From Escherichia phage vB_EcoM_ULIM9, in sequence record OQ850288: DNA of 64,000 nt; one strand, 5' to 3'. Position 1 is the stretch's first letter; the number at the start of each line of letters is the position of its first letter. Positions 43,606 through 48,305 of this stretch are shown piece after piece. The position numbers and the translations under genes were made by a program. The notes below the pieces were generated by a model that was not told the DNA's origin, did no database searches, and saw only the letters and a list, made by a program, of their open reading frames with translations.

Positions 43606-43681
43606 GTAAAATAACTTGGAGAATCCGAAGGGACTCGAACCCTTATAAACCTGTTTTGCAGACAGGCACATAGCCATTTCT
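43606..43681 (-). tRNA. tRNA-Cys (anticodon GCA), CCA encoded
   Basis: Hand fold: acceptor GAATCCG/CGGATTC, anticodon loop CUGCAAA, T-arm with TTCGAGT. Confidence 0.55.
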
Positions 43682-43685
43682 GTCA

Positions 43686-43778
43686 CGGATTCAAATTGGA
43701 GGAAGATACCAGACTTGAACTGGTACACCGATTTCTCAGCTACTGGCAGTTTAGCAAACTGCTCCCTTACCTTTTAGG
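43686..43778 (-). tRNA. tRNA-Ser (anticodon GCU), type II long variable arm
   Basis: 93 nt; acceptor GGAAGAT/ATCTTCC, anticodon stem GCAGT/ACTGC with loop UUGCUAA, long variable arm, T-loop TTCAAGT. Confidence 0.55.
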
Positions 43779-43791
43779 GTTAATCTTCCAT

Positions 43792-44526
43792 TTATTTCTG
43801 TAATGCGCTCTTCATTTCTGGTGTTGCAATAGTGTCAATCACACCAGTTTTACAGGCATCGTCAAACCAGTCTGGTAAGATACCTGCTAAGAACCCATTG
43901 ATATTCGTTTTAAGGTACTCTGCAATAAGGGCAGCTTCTTCTTCAATCATCTGCACAACTTCATCTGCATAAGCTGTAATCTTTGAAATACCTTCATTAA
44001 TCTTACTGACAGCTTGGTTAGCTAAATCAGAAACAGTATCAAGACCCTTATCAATAGCATCTTGTAAGTCACTTAACACACCGTTAACACTGTCTAGTGT
44101 GCTGTTAATCATGTCAATAGCTTGCTGACCATACTCTGTAGCAACACCCATAATACCACTAAATGGTGTACAACCAACTTGTTCTCCTGCTGCACCCATA
44201 ACATTGGAATACCCCTTTGCTACCTGCATACGTGATGAAAACTCATCAATAGACTTTTGACCATAGTCTGTTAGGGTCTTAGTAGTTGCTGTAGTGCTTG
44301 TCAGGCTTGTTGTAAAGCTGTTTAGAAGGACTGTTGTAAGTCCAGCAGCAACAAGCTTCTCCTTCATTGTAGGGTCTGTTACAGAGCTAATAGAGCTTAC
44401 AAGTGATGTAGAGGCAGCTACGGTTCCACCGAGAACTGCTGCACCAGTAATAAGTGGGTTAGAAAACCCTTTACCGGTTTTTAAGAGATTAAAAATCTCC
44501 TTACCTTGTTCTGTCATCTCTTTCAT
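43792..44526 (-). CDS. hypothetical S/T-rich protein embedded in tRNA array
   Basis: ORF track frame 43792-44742 trimmed to Met at 44524-44526 (MKEMTEQ) because the upstream 72 codons run through two tRNA genes. Confidence 0.5.
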   Translation of the reverse strand: MKEMTEQGKEIFNLLKTGKGFSNPLITGAAVLGGTVAASTSLVSSISSVTDPTMKEKLVAAGLTTVLLNSFTTSLTSTTATTKTLTDYGQKSIDEFSSRMQVAKGYSNVMGAAGEQVGCTPFSGIMGVATEYGQQAIDMINSTLDSVNGVLSDLQDAIDKGLDTVSDLANQAVSKINEGISKITAYADEVVQMIEEEAALIAEYLKTNINGFLAGILPDWFDDACKTGVIDTIATPEMKSALQK

Positions 44527-44542
44527 TAAGCACCTTTGAAAT

Positions 44543-44618
44543 TGGTAGTCCAGTGGGATTTGAACCCTCTTCTCATGTTTTTCAGACACGCGCTTTACCA
44601 TATAAGCTACTTGGACTA
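44543..44618 (-). tRNA. tRNA-Phe (anticodon GAA)
   Basis: Anticodon loop CUGAAAA, T-arm GGTTCAAATCC. Confidence 0.5.
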
Positions 44619-44623
44619 TAAAT

Positions 44624-44699
44624 TGGGGTGACCTACGGGATTTGAACCCGTATAGACCATGTTCACAGCATGGGTCATTACCATTTATGATAAGGCCAC
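44624..44699 (-). tRNA. tRNA-His (anticodon GUG)
   Basis: Anticodon stem CCATG/CATGG with loop CUGUGAA; T-arm ACGGG/CCCGT. Confidence 0.55.
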
Positions 44700-44730
44700 A
44701 TTTAAGGACTCTCGTAAGAACCCTTAGAAG

Positions 44731-44806
44731 TGGCAGCGGCATAAGGATTTGAACCTTAATAGGACAGCTTCAGAGACTGCTGCATTGCCAGTTATGCTAT
44801 ACCGCT
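44731..44806 (-). tRNA. tRNA-Gln (anticodon CUG), tentative
   Basis: D-arm GCAT/ATGC, anticodon loop CUCUGAA, T-arm TAAGG/CCTTA. Confidence 0.45.
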
Positions 44807-44811
44807 AAAAT

Positions 44812-44882
44812 TGGTACTCCATATCGGATTCGAACCGATACATAACACAGATTTTAAGTCTGGCCTCTCTGCCAATTGGAGT
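44812..44882 (-). tRNA. tRNA, anticodon read as UAA (Leu-type) but short variable arm; isotype uncertain
   Basis: 71 nt; T-arm ATCGG/CCGAT perfect; anticodon loop CUUAAAA. Confidence 0.4.
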
Positions 44883-44892
44883 AATGGAGCAT

Positions 44893-44968
44893 TGGCGGGG
44901 GATGTTGGAATTGAACCAACTTCTTCGATTTCAAAGACCGAGGTTTTAACCTTGTAAACTAATCCCCT
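44893..44968 (-). tRNA. tRNA-Gln (anticodon UUG), tentative
   Basis: D-stem GTTT/AAAC, anticodon loop CUUUGAA, T-arm GTTGG/CCAAC. Confidence 0.45.
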
Positions 44969-44976
44969 TTAATTCT

Positions 44977-45534
44977 TTACTTTCTCAGTGGATGAATAAA
45001 GAATGCCAACATAACTCTTTCCCTTGAGAATGCTCTTTCTTCTGGGACAACACTTTTTAGTTTCCATCCAATATAAATTCTCCAGTAAAACTGTTTACCA
45101 AAGACTTTAATTGATGGGATAAAAGCGAATAATCCCCAAGCATTACTGTTCCACATTAGGAGATAACCAGTCTGATTATCTTCAGGGTCAGAACTTACGT
45201 TGATATTACCTTTCCACTTAGTAACATCTTTGACATCTCTTCCTAATACATGGTAAGAGAAGTTATAAGCTTTGTTTCTCCAGAGCCATCCGACTCTCTG
45301 CATGTAGACACCAAACTTACCAATCTTTCTAATCTTAGCCCATCTTTTAACGTGACCTTCATCACCATCAATCGGGTTGTCATAGGTTTCCATCCATCTG
45401 AATCCAAAAGGTAGATGTCCTTTCTTCTCACTGTAGAATGGAACTACGAAAGGTGCTAAGATGACTGCTAGGGTTGCTGCAAATGGTTCTAGTAAAGCTA
45501 GGAAAATCCATGAAGCATACTTCAAATATCTCAT
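44977..45534 (-). CDS. membrane protein embedded in tRNA array
   Basis: 185 aa; N-terminal hydrophobic helix (WIFLALLEPFAATLAVILAPFVVPF). Confidence 0.5.
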   Translation of the reverse strand: MRYLKYASWIFLALLEPFAATLAVILAPFVVPFYSEKKGHLPFGFRWMETYDNPIDGDEGHVKRWAKIRKIGKFGVYMQRVGWLWRNKAYNFSYHVLGRDVKDVTKWKGNINVSSDPEDNQTGYLLMWNSNAWGLFAFIPSIKVFGKQFYWRIYIGWKLKSVVPEERAFSRERVMLAFFIHPLRK

Positions 45535-45553
45535 CTAAATAGCCTCTTAAAAT

Positions 45554-46792: not shown

Positions 46793-46874
46793 TGGTCGAG
46801 GCGGCAGGACTCGAACCCGCATACTCCACTTACTCGGTTAACGGCTGTTTAGAAGACAGCTGAGATACGCCCCG
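46793..46874 (-). tRNA. tRNA-like gene (possible Arg, anticodon UCU) with atypical D region
   Basis: Acceptor CGGGGCG/CGCCTCG plus CCA, T-arm with TTCGAGT, hairpin GCTGT-CUUCUAA-ACAGC; spacing between elements is non-standard. Confidence 0.35.
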
Positions 46875-47123
46875 TAATTATCTTTAAAGACTCTCTTAGA
46901 AAGCCCTTAAAGATGCCCACCTTATTAATCATACCGTGGGCGAGTACGCCAAATTCTTTGATGAGGGGTTGGAAGACCTCACTGGTGTTTAGCCTATCAA
47001 GCTACTGCCAGAAAAACATTGTCGTTTGCATTTATTTTAAATTTGCAAAATAGACGCTACGCAACGAAAACTAAGGTTACTATAAAGTAGTCACATCTCA
47101 GTGTCAACAACTTTATTGAAATT

Positions 47124-47198
47124 GGTGCTGGTAGGTGGAATCGAACCCGTCACCTGTCAGATTAAAAGTCTGCCGCATCACCATTCTGCTACACTTCC
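47124..47198 (-). tRNA. tRNA (possible Lys, anticodon UUU), tentative
   Basis: CCA encoded, T-loop TTCGATT, anticodon-like loop CUUUUAA; stems imperfect. Confidence 0.4.
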
Positions 47199-47397
47199 AT
47201 TAAATTATCTTTGTAGATAAGCTACCCAGACTTGCTTAAGGTCTGTAGCGATGTGCCTTTTTGGGTTTAAATCTAGAATTTACCCTTTCACCCTTTGTGG
47301 TCGCATACTCACAGGTAAGCTTAATAACTTATCTACAAAGATAATTACCAGACCGTTGTTTTATCATCTTAAGTGCTACCATTACACCAACTCGACA

Positions 47398-47446
47398 TCT
47401 GCCGAGTGAAGGAATCGAACCTTCGCCTTTTCTTTACCGAGAAATA
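47398..47446 (-). pseudogene. tRNA 3'-half remnant (T-arm only)
   Basis: Perfect T-arm GAAGG-AATCGAA-CCTTC (plus-strand view) with an acceptor-like 3' strand but no matching 5' half within 100 nt. Confidence 0.35.
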
Positions 47447-47627
47447 GATTGTTTAAGTTTTGCTGTAAACGGTCTTCTGTAAATTTGTTGAGCCAGACCA
47501 AGTTTTAAATTTTTCAAAATTGAATTGGCTTGAAATTTTAAGTAACTTGCTGTATTTGGTCTTCTGCTCCTTTAAAGAATACTCGTAAGAACTCTTTAAG
47601 GGAGGGGATAAATAGACCTCTCAAAAT

Positions 47628-47704
47628 TGGCGGCTACGATGAGACTTAAACTAATATCATCTCCCGTGACAGGGGAGTATTTTCTCCAGTTAAACTACAT
47701 AGCC
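47628..47704 (-). tRNA. tRNA-Asp (anticodon GUC)
   Basis: Acceptor GGCTATG/CGTAGCC, anticodon stem CTCCC/GGGAG perfect with loop CUGUCAC. Confidence 0.55.
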
Positions 47705-47709
47705 TTTAT

Positions 47710-47797
47710 TGGTGTGCCGTGTAGGAGTCGAACCTACCGAGTCTCAATGACAAGGGATTTACAGTCCCCACCGCTACCATCTACGGGATAACGACAC
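47710..47797 (-). tRNA. tRNA-Tyr (anticodon GUA), type II
   Basis: 88 nt; T-arm GTAGG/CCTAC perfect, anticodon loop CUGUAAA, long variable arm. Confidence 0.55.
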
Positions 47798-47808
47798 ATT
47801 TAATTTTG

Positions 47809-47882
47809 CGGTTAGTCAGGGATTCGAACCCTGTGCCATTCGCTTAACAGGCGACCGCACATACCTTATGTGCTTCCTAACC
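47809..47882 (-). tRNA. tRNA-Asn (anticodon GUU); CCA not encoded
   Basis: D-stem GCAC/GTGC, anticodon loop CUGUUAA, T-arm CAGGG/CCCTG. Confidence 0.5.
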
Positions 47883-47965
47883 ATGTTTAGTATTACCAGA
47901 CCGTATCTTTCAATTTTTCCGCTAAAAATTTAATAAGTGTTGCTGTAAACGGTCTTCTGTAAATT

Positions 47966-48042
47966 TGGAGGCGGGTGCAGGAGTCGAACCTGCCGATACC
48001 ATGCTAATGAGACATGTGAGACGCCCTTTCTCTATACCCGCA
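47966..48042 (-). tRNA. tRNA with CAU anticodon (Met or Ile-type)
   Basis: T-arm GCAGG/CCTGC perfect, anticodon stem CATGT/GCATG with loop CUCAUUA. Confidence 0.45.
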
Positions 48043-48133
48043 ATTCTTAATGACCAGACCAAATCTCTTCTTTGTCCGATTTACCTTCAGATGAATAAGA
48101 TTAAGTTTGCTGTAATTGGTCTTCTGTCAAAAC

Positions 48134-48211
48134 TGGCGTTCCAGAAGGGATTTGAACCCTCAGATATCCACTTTGAAAGAGTGGTGACTATACCATTTTG
48201 TCTACTGGAAC
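48134..48211 (-). tRNA. tRNA-Glu (anticodon UUC)
   Basis: Acceptor GTTCCAG/CTGGAAC perfect, anticodon stem CCACT/AGTGG perfect with loop CUUUCAA. Confidence 0.55.
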
Positions 48212-48228
48212 ATTAATTTGGTCTCTGT

Positions 48229-48305
48229 TGGAGGACTTGAACCTCCGGCCTTACCGCCCCAAACGGAACGCTCTACCAAGCTGAGCTAAACAGAGATAAA
48301 TTTTT
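48229..48305 (-). tRNA. tRNA-Pro (anticodon UGG)
   Basis: Acceptor CTCTGTT/AACAGAG perfect, D-arm GCTC-AGCTTGGTA-GAGC, anticodon loop UUUGGGG, T-arm GGAGG/CCTCC. Confidence 0.55.

What the first reader, a model, noticed from the sequence alone, without database searches (positions are those of the whole stretch)
43606..48305. Large co-oriented tRNA array with irregular members, embedded protein genes and pseudo-tRNA remnants
About 24 tRNA or tRNA-like genes lie on the minus strand within 4.7 kb, between the vWA gene and the terminase operon; a terminator-like hairpin follows the last tRNA (43519-43580). Hand folding gives anticodons covering Cys, Ser x2, Phe, His, Gln x2, Val, Thr, Gly, Ala, Lys, Asp, Tyr, Asn, Glu, Pro and CAU. 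Three members read as Leu-type anticodons (UAA, CAA, UAG) but have short variable arms. Several others have weak T-stems or non-standard arm spacing (46567-46649, 46793-46874, 46049-46124). Most encode CCA; two (46466-46554, 47809-47882) do not. Two protein genes, one a membrane protein, sit inside the array.
Basis: partly seen in the sequence, partly recalled or inferred. Interest (0 to 1): 0.6.

Follow-up and report, generated by a model that had tools for sequence, protein, structure and literature searches.

The report
Phage tRNA array hiding Y-like RNAs
This is the well-known tRNA gene cluster of a Felix O1-type phage, but its "spacers" hold four small structured RNAs that look like partners of the neighbouring Ro60-like protein, and they belong to a widespread RNA class that is absent from Rfam.

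Summary
The window is a Felixounavirus, 97-98% identical to Escherichia phages REP9 and humlepung. Its tRNA array has been published since 2010, so the array itself is already known.

The irregular members resolve as follows:
- 47199-47123 is a private deletion chimera, tRNA-Lys(UUU) 5' part fused to tRNA-Ile 3' end.
- 46874-46793 is a D-armless tRNA-like gene with a UCU anticodon. It replaces a canonical tRNA-Arg found in relatives.
- 46649-46567 is a tRNA-Trp-like gene with an aberrant D arm.
- All three tRNA-Leu are type I (short variable loop), as in every related phage array checked.

The new result concerns the "vWA gene" and the array gaps. The gene's predicted fold matches Ro60. Four gaps hold a repeated element: a stem, then ACAGCAA, a variable interior, and the closing strand. 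One copy carries a T arm, acceptor hairpin and D arm, as in bacterial YrlA Y RNAs.

A covariance model built from this element hit 152 sites beside homologous genes in 159 other loci. Every hit lies on the gene's strand, and the stem covaries. Rfam has no such family. RNA-protein binding is inferred, not shown.

The parts
48462..49877 (-). Ro60-like protein gene (471 aa; Pfam DUF2828 + DUF7788; PHROG 850 'RNA-binding protein')
   Evidence: Pfam and PHROGs hits. The AF2 model has pLDDT 87. Its top 11 Foldseek PDB hits are all full-length Ro60/TROVE structures, prob 1.0, TM 0.5-0.64. Sequence-level similarity to Ro60 is only marginal, E = 0.3.
48414..48442 (-). sigma-70-like promoter (TTGACA-17-TAATAT), overlapped by a 12-bp hairpin
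48322..48351 (-). sigma-70-like promoter (TTGACA-18-TAAAGT, with TG) just upstream of the first tRNA
48219..48295 (-). tRNA-Pro(UGG)
48134..48211 (-). tRNA-Glu(UUC)
48051..48129 (-). Y-like RNA 1. Layout: outer stem UGAC/GUCA, AGA bulge, stem AGACCAA/UUGGUCU, ACAGCAA motif at 48113-48107. It fills the gap between tRNA-Glu and tRNA(CAU).
   Evidence: Pattern search, fold, CM R1 48.9 bits, E = 1.5e-8, repeat families D6/D9/D19.
47966..48042 (-). tRNA(CAU), atypical: U1.C72 mismatch, U73, U37
   Evidence: ARAGORN only; below the Rfam gathering score.
47893..47962 (-). Y-like RNA 2 (UUAC/GUAA outer stem; AGACCGU/ACGGUCU). It fills the gap between tRNA(CAU) and tRNA-Asn.
   Evidence: CM R1 44.7 bits
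47808..47882 (-). tRNA-Asn(GUU), no encoded CCA
47710..47797 (-). tRNA-Tyr(GUA), class II with long variable arm
47628..47704 (-). tRNA-Asp(GUC)
47570..47602 (-). Hairpin CUUAAAGAguucuuacgaguaUUCUUUAAAG, one of three related copies (others at 46880-46914 and 44701-44731)
   Evidence: Repeat family D15 and inverted repeat I11. Function unknown; a processing site is a guess.
47490..47569 (-). Y-like RNA 3 (GAGC/GCUC outer stem; AGACCAA/UUGGUCU)
   Evidence: CM R1 44.5 bits
47345..47482 (-). Y-like RNA 4, the long form. It has the same stem and ACAGCAA motif, enclosing a V hairpin and a tRNA-like module in YrlA order (V, T arm, acceptor hairpin, D arm).
   Evidence: Fold -33.4 kcal/mol with a cloverleaf-like interior. 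CM R1 matches its 5' part. The same architecture occurs in Sf14, Klebsiella phage FBKp34, mycobacteriophage Whirlwind, L074 and L045.
47372..47424 (-). tRNA-like module inside Y4: T arm 47424-47408 (GAAGG-UUCGAUU-CCUUC), closed 7-bp acceptor-like hairpin 47407-47390, D arm 47388-47372 (loop AAUGGUA)
   Evidence: Sequence and fold. The Rfam tRNA model matches the V/T/acceptor half at 15 bits.
47203..47346 (-). Very stable branched hairpin with a closing stem of about 24 bp; unknown role
   Evidence: -48 kcal/mol, z = -5.25; inverted repeat I2.
47123..47199 (-). Chimeric pseudo-tRNA: the 5' two-thirds of tRNA-Lys(UUU) joined within the T arm to the 3' end of tRNA-Ile(GAU). About 150-160 nt are deleted, removing a second tRNA(CAU) and most of tRNA-Ile.
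   Evidence: Alignment with REP9 and humlepung. Rfam 32.9 bits. ARAGORN finds it only at a lowered threshold, with mismatched stems. No related record has this junction in one piece.
47079..47107 (-). Internal sigma-70-like promoter (TTGACA-17-TATAGT, 11 of 12 matches)
46880..47078 (-). Conserved non-tRNA stretch with hairpins that keep pairing through changes in Sf14 and Moogle (UGAGG/CCUCA versus CAGGG/CCCUG); unknown ncRNA or leader
   Evidence: only weak sub-threshold Rfam tmRNA hits
46793..46874 (-). Non-canonical tRNA-like gene with anticodon loop CUUCUAA (UCU). It has a 7-bp acceptor with G3.U70 and A73, no D arm, a 22-nt extra region, a normal T arm and CCA.
   Evidence: Sequence. The anticodon stem changes U-A to G-C in relatives. 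A canonical tRNA-Arg(UCU) sits in the same slot in Sf14, L006, L007 and Moogle. Annotated 'tRNA-OTHER' in REP9.
46567..46649 (-). tRNA-Trp(CCA)-like gene with A1-U72, G73 and CCA, and an aberrant D region. The window copy carries two private disruptive substitutions.
   Evidence: Not called by ARAGORN as Trp (a low-threshold run offers only a forced 'SeC' fold) and not matched by Rfam at this position.
46464..46553 (-). tRNA-Ser(UGA), class II, ends GCC with no full CCA
46211..46300 (-). Long hairpin (26-nt arms) upstream of tRNA-Leu(UAG)
   Evidence: Inverted repeat I1; conserved in relatives.
46132..46209 (-). tRNA-Leu(UAG), type I (4-nt variable loop), A73
46049..46124 (-). tRNA-Lys(CUU)
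   Evidence: 56.9 bits
45967..46042 (-). tRNA-Ala(UGC)
45886..45960 (-). tRNA-Gly(UCC)
45803..45879 (-). tRNA-Thr(UGU)
45633..45707 (-). tRNA-Val(UAC)
45554..45631 (-). tRNA-Leu(CAA), type I (5-nt variable loop), A73
44977..45534 (-). Embedded protein gene, 185 aa, DUF7338 / PHROG 2143, hydrophobic N-terminus. In Sf14 this slot holds tRNA-Arg(ACG) instead.
44893..44968 (-). tRNA-Gln(UUG)
44812..44890 (-). tRNA-Leu(UAA), type I (7-nt variable loop), A73
44731..44806 (-). tRNA-Gln(CUG)
44624..44699 (-). tRNA-His(GUG)
44543..44617 (-). tRNA-Phe(GAA)
43792..44526 (-). Embedded protein gene, 244 aa, DUF7217 / PHROG 2114 (annotated 'putative membrane protein' or 'holin' in some relatives)
43697..43789 (-). 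tRNA-Ser(GCU), class II
43617..43692 (-). tRNA-Cys(GCA), last gene of the array
43520..43579 (-). Intrinsic-terminator-like hairpin plus U6 tract after the last tRNA
   Evidence: -25.4 kcal/mol, z = -5.2, 0 of 200 shuffles fold as well.

Best explanation
The region is the tRNA/ncRNA expression module of a Felix O1-type myovirus (Felixounavirus). Sigma-70-like promoters just downstream of the Ro60-like gene (48442, 48351) and inside the array (47107) most likely drive polycistronic transcripts. These end at the hairpin-U6 terminator at 43579-43520.

Host tRNA-processing enzymes would cut out 21 tRNAs, which supplement or replace host tRNAs during infection. Because tRNAs flank them, the same cuts would release four 70-138-nt structured RNAs (Y1-Y4), which are not tRNAs.

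Each Y-like RNA pairs its 5' and 3' ends into a stem whose 5' strand runs directly into an invariant single-stranded ACAGCAA. In this phage the stem has a 3-nt/1-nt bulge and an outer 4-bp helix. Y4 additionally carries a tRNA-like module with T arm, closed acceptor hairpin and D arm.

I propose that these RNAs are the Y-RNA-like partners of the adjacent Ro60-fold protein, and that the stem plus ACAGCAA is the protein's binding site. The resulting particle would work like bacterial Rsr/Y-RNA particles, gating the Ro60 ring and tethering it to a host RNA enzyme. That would affect RNA turnover or counter a host defence.

Status of the steps:
- Shown here: the genes, the fold similarity, the RNA motif, its covariation, and its strict linkage to this gene family.
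- Inferred: transcription, processing, binding and function.

The irregular tRNA-like genes are side products of a plastic array: one private deletion chimera and two non-canonical alleles.
For: Array identity
- 21 tRNAs by ARAGORN and 20 by Rfam.
- 97-98% DNA identity to Felixounavirus genomes across the whole 5.1 kb. The Felix O1 array of 22 tRNAs was published in 2010 (PMC3185647).

Protein
- The AF2 model (pLDDT 87) has all top 11 PDB matches to full-length Ro60 structures.
- Homologs in mycobacteriophages are annotated 'Ro-like RNA binding protein'.
- The Bas63 ortholog gp130 was reported as Ro60-like and as a counter to the Ppl defence. Its authors only guessed that Y RNAs lie among the tRNAs (PMC11482910).

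RNA in the window
- AGAAGACCnnnTACAGCAA occurs 4 times, against 0.77 expected by chance, all in array gaps on the gene's strand. All four fold the same way.
- CM R1 hits only these 4 sites in the 64-kb window, both strands searched.

RNA in other loci
- In 79 other phage loci that encode homologs (39-84% identity): 72 hits on the gene's strand, 0 on the other strand. 63 of 72 lie within 800 nt of the gene, and 50 of 79 loci have a hit.
- In 80 independent genome/MAG loci, none used to build the model: 80 hits on the gene's strand, 0 on the other.
- Stem covariation: 95% of cells paired, against 28-46% in slid controls. All 7 pairs show compensatory changes.
- The YrlA-like V/T/acceptor/D order recurs in six divergent phages. 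Rfam's YrlA model gives sub-threshold hits on two of them.
- Many motif-bearing loci have no tRNA within 4 kb, so the link is to the protein gene and not to tRNAs.
Against: - No expression, processing or binding data exist for this phage in what I could search.
- The RNAs lack the GNCGAAN0-1G/CGAA motif of known Y RNAs. Y4 does not match Rfam YrlA even with lax filters.
- The protein fails the Pfam TROVE model and matches Ro60 by sequence only at E = 0.3.
- Some copies in other phages sit in the 5' UTR of the gene, directly before the Shine-Dalgarno sequence. That fits cis autoregulation as well as a trans-acting RNA.
- Seed elements were chosen for having a stem, so covariation in the seed alignment is partly circular. 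The CM-derived alignment also leans towards the model.
- Promoter calls are no more frequent than in shuffled sequence.
Confidence: 0.72

Rival explanations
1. Plain tRNA array with decaying remnants. The four repeats and other gap sequences would be only spacers or RNase processing/termination signals for the tRNA precursor, with no life of their own and no link to the neighbouring protein.
For: Y1 and Y2 exactly fill gaps between tRNAs. Other unrelated hairpins also populate the gaps. One locus is truly a deletion remnant. PhageMaP found Bas63 tRNAs mostly non-essential.
Against: The same motif lies beside DUF2828 genes in many loci with no tRNA within 4 kb, such as L014, L017, L062, L068 and L075. 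It also occurs in Firmicutes and Chloroflexi genome contigs. It is always on the gene's strand, 152 to 0. An invariant 7-nt single-stranded motif and an internal tRNA-like domain are not expected of a mere spacer.
Confidence: 0.12
2. The elements are cis-acting operators. The Ro60-like protein, or another factor, would bind the stem-ACAGCAA site on the nascent transcript to control its own synthesis or read-through into the array. They would not be stable trans-acting Y RNAs.
For: In several distant loci a minimal copy (8-15-nt interior) sits between the promoter region and the Shine-Dalgarno sequence of the DUF2828 gene (L016, L020, L029, L031, L012). RNA-binding proteins often autoregulate this way.
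Against: In this window all four copies lie downstream of the gene, separated from it by promoters and tRNAs. None is in its 5' UTR. The long form carries a complete tRNA-like domain, as in proven Y RNAs. Multiple tandem copies are typical of Y RNA loci (PMC4201824).
Confidence: 0.1
3. The repeats are selfish or repetitive DNA: miniature mobile elements, homing-endonuclease targets or recombination hot spots that spread within tRNA arrays.
For: The array is plastic. HNH endonuclease insertions, allele swaps and deletions are seen among relatives.
Against: Copies in different phage families share only the 7-nt motif and the pairing pattern, not DNA sequence. Pairing is kept by compensatory changes. 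All copies share one strand and sit near one gene family.
Confidence: 0.03

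Closest known systems
tRNA gene cluster of Salmonella phage Felix O1 and relatives (wV8, Sf14, Bas63)
   Same: Same genes in the same order, at 97-98% DNA identity. It lies between the DUF2828 gene and the terminase genes, and includes low-scoring 'pseudo' tRNAs.
   Different: This genome has a private deletion of about 150-160 nt that fuses tRNA-Lys(UUU) to tRNA-Ile and removes a tRNA(CAU). 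The published descriptions I could read do not mention the gap RNAs.
Bacterial Ro60 (Rsr) with YrlA/YrlB Y RNAs (Chen et al. 2014, PMC4201824; Rfam RF02553)
   Same: Ring-plus-vWA protein fold. Several small RNAs are encoded within 4 kb on the same strand, with their ends paired into a stem. At least one RNA has a tRNA-like domain in the order V, T arm, closed acceptor stem, D arm.
   Different: The protein belongs to Pfam DUF2828/DUF7788, not TROVE. The RNAs have ACAGCAA after the 5' strand instead of GNCGAAN0-1G. The window RNA does not match RF02553, and relatives reach only 38-40 bits against a cut-off of 69. The RNAs are interleaved with tRNA genes.
Thermus phage phiLo Ro60 with Yrl1/Yrl2 (PMC12135203; PDB 9KOP, 9L5Y)
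   Same: A phage-encoded Ro60-fold protein with adjacent Y-like RNAs. It is the best structural match to the window protein. Binding and PNPase recruitment were shown there.
   Different: 16% sequence identity. The phiLo RNAs were picked by a CGAA motif and lie upstream of the gene. No ACAGCAA motif and no tRNA array are described there.
Bas63 (Felixounavirus) gp130, reported as Ro60-like and as a counter to the Ppl defence system (PhageMaP preprint, PMC11482910)
   Same: Orthologous gene in a near-identical genome. The Y3+Y4 DNA is 98.3% identical in Bas63 (JohannRWettstein).
   Different: That work suggested that some annotated tRNAs might be Y RNAs. The candidates found here are the unannotated gap elements, not the annotated tRNAs.
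Type I (short variable loop) tRNA-Leu of Streptomyces coelicolor and human mitochondria (PMC6614811)
   Same: Leu anticodons on a tRNA without the long variable arm.
   Different: The phage tRNAs keep the bacterial Leu-type D arm (3-bp stem, CCAAUUGGCAGAGG) and A73, and occur in phages of enterobacteria and Vibrio. That paper reports that E. coli LeuRS charges only type II tRNA-Leu, so their charging is untested.

Membership tests
tRNA (Rfam RF00005 / ARAGORN) | Cloverleaf scoring above the curated threshold | tested here: met
   20 loci are at or above 29 bits and ARAGORN. The UCU-like and Trp-like loci do not pass. The Lys/Ile chimera passes Rfam narrowly at 32.9 bits, with mismatched stems.
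Felixounavirus tRNA array | Collinear DNA identity with published Felix O1-like genomes, between the DUF2828 gene and the terminase genes | tested here: met
   228 records cover at least 80% of the 5.1 kb; the best are 97-98% identical. Gene order matches humlepung, REP9 and Sf14.
Ro60 / TROVE protein family | Match to the Pfam TROVE domain | tested here: not met
   Pfam gives DUF2828 and DUF7788 only. A profile search against PDB sequences reaches Ro60 only at E = 0.3.
Ro60 / TROVE protein family | Helical-repeat ring plus C-terminal vWA domain (Ro60 fold) | tested here: met
   Foldseek on a pLDDT-87 model: ranks 1-11 are all Ro60 structures aligned over the full length, E 1e-8 to 1e-6, TM 0.5-0.64. 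vWA-only proteins follow at E above 1e-3.
Ro60 / TROVE protein family | Binds Y RNA and misfolded RNA | not testable with these tools
   Needs RIP, CLIP or EMSA.
YrlA-type Y RNA (RF02553; Chen et al. 2014) | Match to the YrlA covariance model at the gathering score | tested here: not met
   No YrlA hit on Y4 even at E up to 10 on a 181-nt query. Relatives FBKp34 and Whirlwind reach 39.6 and 38.3 bits, against a cut-off of 69.
YrlA-type Y RNA (RF02553; Chen et al. 2014) | Encoded within 4 kb of the Ro60 ortholog on the same strand | tested here: met
   Y1-Y4 lie 333-1117 nt downstream of the gene on the same strand. The same holds for 152 of 152 hits in other loci.
YrlA-type Y RNA (RF02553; Chen et al. 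2014) | tRNA-like domain: V, T arm, closed acceptor stem, D arm between the paired ends | tested here: met
   Y4 fold and sequence. The same layout occurs in five other phages.
YrlA-type Y RNA (RF02553; Chen et al. 2014) | GNCGAAN0-1G (or CGAA) motif in the 5' strand | tested here: not met
   The 5' strands read (A/G)CAGAAGACC...ACAGCAA. There is no CGAA, and the conserved motif is ACAGCAA.
Bacterial type II tRNA-Leu | Long variable arm (stem-loop of more than 10 nt) | tested here: not met
   Variable loops are 4, 5 and 7 nt. A73 and the Leu-type D arm are retained.
Intrinsic terminator | Stable G+C-closed hairpin followed by a U tract | tested here: met
   43579-43526 hairpin, z = -5.2, followed by U6. 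The simple scan missed it because the loop exceeds 8 nt.

The most novel reading that the evidence does not exclude
DUF2828/DUF7788 proteins and stem-ACAGCAA RNAs may form a distinct and very widespread ribonucleoprotein system of phages and prophages. It spans Felix O1-like, Klebsiella, Vibrio, Listeria, Staphylococcus and mycobacterial phages, plus many Firmicutes and Chloroflexi contigs. It would run parallel to classical Ro60/Y RNA but with its own recognition code, often embedded in tRNA arrays, and used to counter host defences (for example Ppl) or to police tRNA-like RNAs. In the same arrays, some 'tRNAs' may be mimics with unexpected identities rather than decoders: type I tRNA-Leu, a D-armless UCU RNA with the G3.U70 alanine mark, and a CAU tRNA with U73.
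Probability: 0.4. Interest if true: 0.75.

Novelty: new variant of a known kind. Interest (0 to 1): 0.55.

Why it matters
The array itself adds nothing new. The gap RNAs do matter, for four reasons.

- A published guess becomes testable. The PhageMaP authors suggested that "some tRNA genes may be Y RNAs". There are now four exact loci in a tractable coliphage (Bas63/Felix O1) whose Ro60-like gene already has a phenotype, countering the Ppl defence.
- A compact recognition element is defined. A covarying stem plus invariant ACAGCAA lies next to this protein family in about 100 of 159 loci examined, from many phage groups. No Rfam family covers it.
- Annotation could improve. In hundreds of deposited Felix O1-like genomes these loci are unannotated, or are called hypothetical proteins or odd tRNAs.
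- The array raises a biochemical question. It carries three type I tRNA-Leu, yet E. coli LeuRS has been reported to charge only type II tRNA-Leu.

Tried and rejected
- Rfam search of the region at E up to 10 and of Y4 alone. Nothing matched the four elements. Hits to Dictyostelium class I RNA, microRNAs and plastid UTRs are chance.
- Self-cleaving ribozyme. The CAGAAG...CUGGUA ends recalled the hairpin ribozyme from memory. There is no Rfam support and the motif differs, so I dropped it.
- Circularly permuted tRNA gene, as in red algae. The T-arm-before-D-arm order at 47424-47372 first suggested this. I rejected it because the acceptor stem is closed by a 4-nt loop and the module sits inside a larger stem, as in YrlA.
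- tmRNA. Weak sub-threshold Rfam hits at 46876-47112 (15.9-21 bits). ARAGORN finds no tmRNA in the window. Not supported.
- Sequence-only link of the protein to solved structures. It is marginal at best, so the Ro60 link rests on the predicted fold.
- GAAG as part of the conserved motif. It holds only in Felix-like and FBKp34 phages. The general signature is the stem base AGR/YCU+G and ACAGCAA.
- Supplementary tables of Chen et al. 2014, to see which phages they covered. These are not held in the library.
- Literature searches for DUF2828, Bas63+Ro60, and phage Y RNAs since 2022. No paper in the library identifies these RNAs. Subscription journals are not covered.

Full report
**1. What is there**

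ARAGORN finds 21 tRNA genes, all on the minus strand, between 43617 and 48295. The Rfam tRNA model passes its gathering score at 20 sites.

Reading the sequences confirms the details.
- All genes encode CCA except Asn (47882-47808) and Ser-UGA (46553-46464).
- The three Leu tRNAs are 78-79 nt long, with variable loops of 4, 5 and 7 nt.
- After the last tRNA, a hairpin at 43579-43526 is followed by U6. It folds at -25.4 kcal/mol, z = -5.2.
- Two protein genes sit inside the array: 44977-45534 (DUF7338, hydrophobic N-terminus) and 43792-44526 (DUF7217).

Only the suspicion about Lys-CUU (46049-46124) is unfounded, since it scores 56.9 bits.

**2. Whose genome it is**

The 5.1-kb region is 97-98% identical over its whole length to Escherichia phages REP9-12, humlepung and allfine, Salmonella phages GEC_vB_B1 and Mushroom, and others. 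In all, 305 records match and 228 cover at least 80%. These are Felixounavirus, the Felix O1-like myoviruses.

Their tRNA cluster was described with the Felix O1 genome in 2010: 22 tRNAs, two of them flagged 'pseudo' (PMC3185647). It was analysed again for the Moogle-like phage Sf14 in 2025 (PMC12482277). As a tRNA array, the finding is already known.

**3. The irregular tRNA-like members**

(a) *47199-47123.* Rfam scores this at 32.9 bits. ARAGORN sees it only at a lowered threshold, with mismatched acceptor and T stems.
- Alignment with REP9 and humlepung shows the cause. Relatives carry tRNA-Lys(UUU), tRNA(CAU) and tRNA-Ile(GAU) in tandem.
- The window has lost about 150-160 nt between the T arm of Lys and the T loop of Ile. 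What remains is a Lys-5'/Ile-3' chimera.
- None of 246 related records contains this junction in one piece. It is a private deletion or, less likely, an assembly error.

(b) *46874-46793.*
- Canonical features: a 7-bp acceptor stem, a normal T arm and CCA, and an anticodon arm GCUGU-CUUCUAA-ACAGC (anticodon UCU).
- Non-canonical features: only 7 nt where the D arm should be, and a 22-nt extra region.
- Several relatives share this allele, and two of them change the anticodon stem U-A to G-C. Sf14, Moogle and two metagenomic relatives have a canonical 77-nt tRNA-Arg(UCU) in the same slot.
- Its acceptor stem has G3.U70 and A73. By the established rule for alanyl-tRNA synthetase, that marks alanine identity. 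I note this as unexplained.

(c) *46649-46567.*
- It has A1-U72, G73, CCA and an anticodon arm close to E. coli tRNA-Trp, but a disordered D region.
- It is conserved in Felixounavirus and Mooglevirus. The window copy has two extra disruptive substitutions.

(d) *tRNA-Leu.* All 22 tRNA-Leu genes in the related arrays I examined are type I. They keep A73 and a conserved Leu-type D arm, CCAAUUGGCAGAGG. The arrays are from Felix-like, Moogle-like, Klebsiella phage FBKp34, Vibrio phage nt-1 and an uncultured phage. A 2019 study states that E. coli LeuRS charges only type II tRNA-Leu and failed on a Streptomyces type I tRNA-Leu (PMC6614811). Whether these phage tRNAs are leucylated is an open, testable point.

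**4. The neighbouring 'vWA' gene has a Ro60 fold**

Pfam assigns DUF2828 and DUF7788 to the protein at 48462-49877. PHROGs calls it an RNA-binding protein.

An AlphaFold2 model built from 37 homologs has mean pLDDT 87. Its eleven best matches in the PDB are all full-length Ro60 proteins: Thermus phage phiLo, Deinococcus Rsr, Xenopus and human (probability 1.0, TM 0.5-0.64). Isolated vWA domains follow far behind. At the sequence level the link is marginal, E = 0.3.

Homologs occur in 709 phage records. Those in mycobacteriophages are annotated 'Ro-like RNA binding protein'.

The PhageMaP preprint on Bas63, a Felixounavirus, reported that the ortholog gp130 resembles Ro60 and counters the Ppl defence system. 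It suggested, without naming loci, that some annotated tRNAs might be Y RNAs (PMC11482910).

**5. Four repeated structured RNAs in the array gaps**

Reading the gaps showed AGAAGACCnnnTACAGCAA four times on the minus strand. That compares with 0.77 matches expected by chance, and 0 of 100 shuffles reached 5. Each copy is matched 35-102 nt downstream by GGUCUGG. The repeat finder recovered the same families independently (D6, D9, D19).

All four fold alike. From the outside in, the layout is:
- an outer 4-bp helix, which differs between copies but always pairs (UGAC/GUCA, UUAC/GUAA, GAGC/GCUC);
- a 3-nt AGA bulge opposite a single G;
- a 7-8-bp stem;
- 1-2 nt, and then ACAGCAA opening the interior.

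| Element | Coordinates (minus strand) | Position |
|---|---|---|
| Y1 | 48129-48051 | exactly fills the gap between tRNA-Glu and tRNA(CAU) |
| Y2 | 47962-47893 | exactly fills the gap between tRNA(CAU) and tRNA-Asn |
| Y3 | 47569-47490 | in tandem with Y4, after tRNA-Asp |
| Y4 | 47482-47345 | in tandem with Y3, after tRNA-Asp |

The interior of Y4 holds a small hairpin and then three tRNA-like parts:
- a T arm (GAAGG-UUCGAUU-CCUUC);
- a 7-bp acceptor-like stem closed by a tetraloop;
- a D arm with GG in its loop.

This order (V, T, closed acceptor, D) is the one described for bacterial YrlA Y RNAs (PMC4201824).

**6. The motif travels with the gene family**

The same signature appears downstream of the DUF2828 gene in three other phages:
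- Sf14, with four copies;
- Klebsiella phage FBKp34, of another subfamily (protein 51% identical), including a long form with a tRNA-like domain;
- mycobacteriophage Whirlwind, with three copies and one long form.

In 75 metagenomic viral loci with 39-47% protein identity, ACAGCAA is enriched on the gene's strand. Across all 85 loci fetched at that point, which include these 75, it occurs 151 times on the locus + strand and 59 times on the other. The + strand is the gene's strand in all but L001 and L002.

It typically sits just after a 6-9-bp arm whose partner lies 10-220 nt downstream and is followed by G. The stem base reads AGR/YCU, or UAGG/CCUG, UUGG/CCAG, or GGAC/GUCC.

I aligned 24 short-form copies from 16 genomes. 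On that alignment 88% of cells in the 7-bp stem pair, against 26-45% when the partner strand is slid. All 7 pairs show double changes. Because the seeds were chosen for having a stem, I treat this only as a description.

The tests are the searches with the covariance model built from that alignment.

| Search set | Hits at E ≤ 1 | Strand |
|---|---|---|
| The 64-kb window, both strands | 4 (exactly Y1-Y4) | all on the gene's strand |
| 79 other phage loci, 692 kb | 72, in 50 of 79 loci | all on the gene's strand |
| 7 Felix-like loci | 4 per locus on the gene's strand | one further match (E = 0.49) on the other strand |
| 80 bacterial-genome/MAG loci (33-43% identity), none in the model | 80 | all on the gene's strand |

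- In the 79 phage loci, 63 of 72 hits lie within 800 nt of the gene. Many of these loci did not contribute seeds.
- In the 80 genome/MAG loci, most hits lie just upstream of the gene.
- On the model-derived alignment of the 72 phage hits, 95% of cells pair, against 28-46% slid. All seven pairs show compensatory changes, with 183 cells changed on both sides against 57 in shuffles.
- The motif also occurs in loci with no tRNA within 4 kb. Only 32 of 84 loci have tRNAs nearby, and those tRNAs are always co-oriented with the gene.

The element is therefore tied to the protein gene, not to tRNA genes.

**7. Comparison with known systems**

The arrangement works like a Ro60/Y-RNA locus. It has a Ro60-fold protein, several small RNAs on the same strand within about 1 kb, paired RNA ends, and at least one RNA with a tRNA-like domain. 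Phage examples are known: mycobacteriophages with TROVE-type Ro60 (Chen et al. 2014), and Thermus phage phiLo, where binding and PNPase recruitment were shown (PMC12135203).

Membership in the defined families fails on three tested points.
- The protein does not match Pfam TROVE.
- The RNAs lack the GNCGAAN0-1G/CGAA motif.
- Rfam's YrlA model does not match Y4, and reaches only 38-40 bits (cut-off 69) in two relatives.

I therefore file it as a new variant of a known kind. In the library I could search, no paper identifies these RNAs. Rfam 15 has no matching family. In deposited genomes the loci are unannotated, or are called hypothetical proteins or 'tRNA-Thr'.

**8. How it most likely works**

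All of this section is inference.
- Promoter-like sites at 48442, 48351 and 47107 and the terminator at 43579-43520 would define polycistronic transcripts.
- RNase P and 3'-end processing of the flanking tRNAs would release Y1 and Y2 directly. Y3 and Y4 lie between a hairpin and a very stable branched hairpin (47203-47346, z = -5.25) that may be further processing sites.
- The Ro60-like protein would bind the stem-ACAGCAA module.
- By analogy with Rsr/Y RNA/PNPase, the variable interior or the tRNA-like domain would recruit or block a host enzyme.
- The only functional datum is from Bas63: loss of gp130 sensitises the phage to Ppl.
- In other phages, a minimal copy directly in front of the gene's ribosome-binding site suggests the protein also regulates its own mRNA.

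**9. Limits**

- No expression or binding data are available.
- E-values from the shortened calibration are rough.
- Both alignments used for covariation are biased towards the stem. The strand asymmetry (152 to 0) and the clustering near the gene do not suffer from that bias.
- The literature search cannot see subscription journals.
- Several other conserved gap sequences remain unexplained (see the items noticed in passing).

**10. Verdict**

The finding as written is real but ordinary: the known tRNA array of a Felix O1-like phage, with one private deletion. What deserves follow-up is the Ro60-like gene next to it, and the four stem-ACAGCAA RNAs hidden between the tRNAs.

Noticed in passing
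46793-46874 (-): The UCU tRNA-like gene has G3.U70 plus A73 in its acceptor stem, the classical alanine identity mark, although its anticodon reads Arg codons AGA/AGG. It lacks a D arm. CUC/GAG could close a helix around the anticodon arm, a topology reminiscent of the tRNA-like domain of tmRNA. Relatives alternate between this allele and a canonical tRNA-Arg(UCU) in the same slot.
   Followed up: partly
44812-44890, 45554-45631, 46132-46209 (-); also L003, L004, L005, L006-L009, L011: All 22 phage tRNA-Leu genes examined, from five phage groups, are type I (4-7-nt variable loop). They share a conserved Leu-type D arm and A73, while Ser and Tyr keep long arms. E. coli LeuRS has been reported to charge only type II tRNA-Leu (PMC6614811).
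   Followed up: partly
47966-48042 (-): The only CAU tRNA left in this genome is atypical: U1.C72 mismatch, U73 discriminator and U37. The Sf14 paper's isotype table gives its ortholog the highest score for Cys, not Met.
   Followed up: no
46690-46745 (-): A block that is invariant across Felixounavirus and Mooglevirus: GGAGGUGGUCUGUAUCUCAUGUUUUCCAGAACAUGUAAAUAA. It reads as a Shine-Dalgarno-like sequence plus a 7-codon mini-ORF (MFSRTCK), lying between the UCU-like and Trp-like genes.
   Followed up: partly
46880-47078 (-): About 200 nt downstream of the strong internal promoter (47107) are conserved. The hairpins keep pairing through compensatory changes in Sf14 and Moogle (UGAGG/CCUCA versus CAGGG/CCCUG). 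Rfam gives only weak sub-threshold tmRNA hits. Possibly another ncRNA.
   Followed up: partly
46320-46420 (-): A stretch between tRNA-Ser(UGA) and tRNA-Leu(UAG) is as conserved between Felix-like and Moogle-like phages as the tRNAs themselves. It contains small hairpins (CACCUAGUAGGUG, GGAGA...UCUCC). No known family matches.
   Followed up: partly
47203-47346 (-) and 46211-46300 (-): Two long, very stable hairpins lie inside the array. The first folds at -48 kcal/mol, z = -5.25, with a branched interior. In Sf14 its outer stem differs in sequence but still pairs. They may be RNase III-type processing sites.
   Followed up: partly
44701-44731, 46880-46914, 47570-47602 (-): Three copies of a hairpin of the form CUUUAAAG-N14-CUUUAAAG (repeat family D15). 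Each sits just upstream of a tRNA-like gene or of Y3.
   Followed up: no
L004 8003-8116 (Klebsiella phage FBKp34): A 114-nt 'tRNA-Asp' scores 47.7 bits in Rfam. It carries a 38-nt insertion between the D arm and the anticodon stem that contains a hairpin and GAAGUUUUACAGCA. This looks like the Y-like motif grafted into a tRNA.
   Followed up: no
L016, L020, L029, L031, L012 (IMG/VR loci), just upstream of the DUF2828 start codon: Minimal copies of the stem-ACAGCAA element (8-15-nt interior) end within a few nucleotides of the Shine-Dalgarno sequence of the Ro60-like gene. This suggests autoregulation of the gene's own mRNA.
   Followed up: partly
44977-45534 (-) versus L003 10752-10828: The slot holding the DUF7338 protein gene in this phage holds tRNA-Arg(ACG) in Sf14. 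Some Felix-like relatives also carry tRNA-Arg(ACG). HNH endonuclease genes are inserted in the array in others. The array is a hotspot of gene exchange.
   Followed up: no
48134-48211 and 45554-45631 (-): tRNA-Glu(UUC) and tRNA-Leu(CAA) share an identical 7-bp acceptor stem (GUUCCAG/CUGGAAC) and differ only in the discriminator base (G versus A).
   Followed up: no
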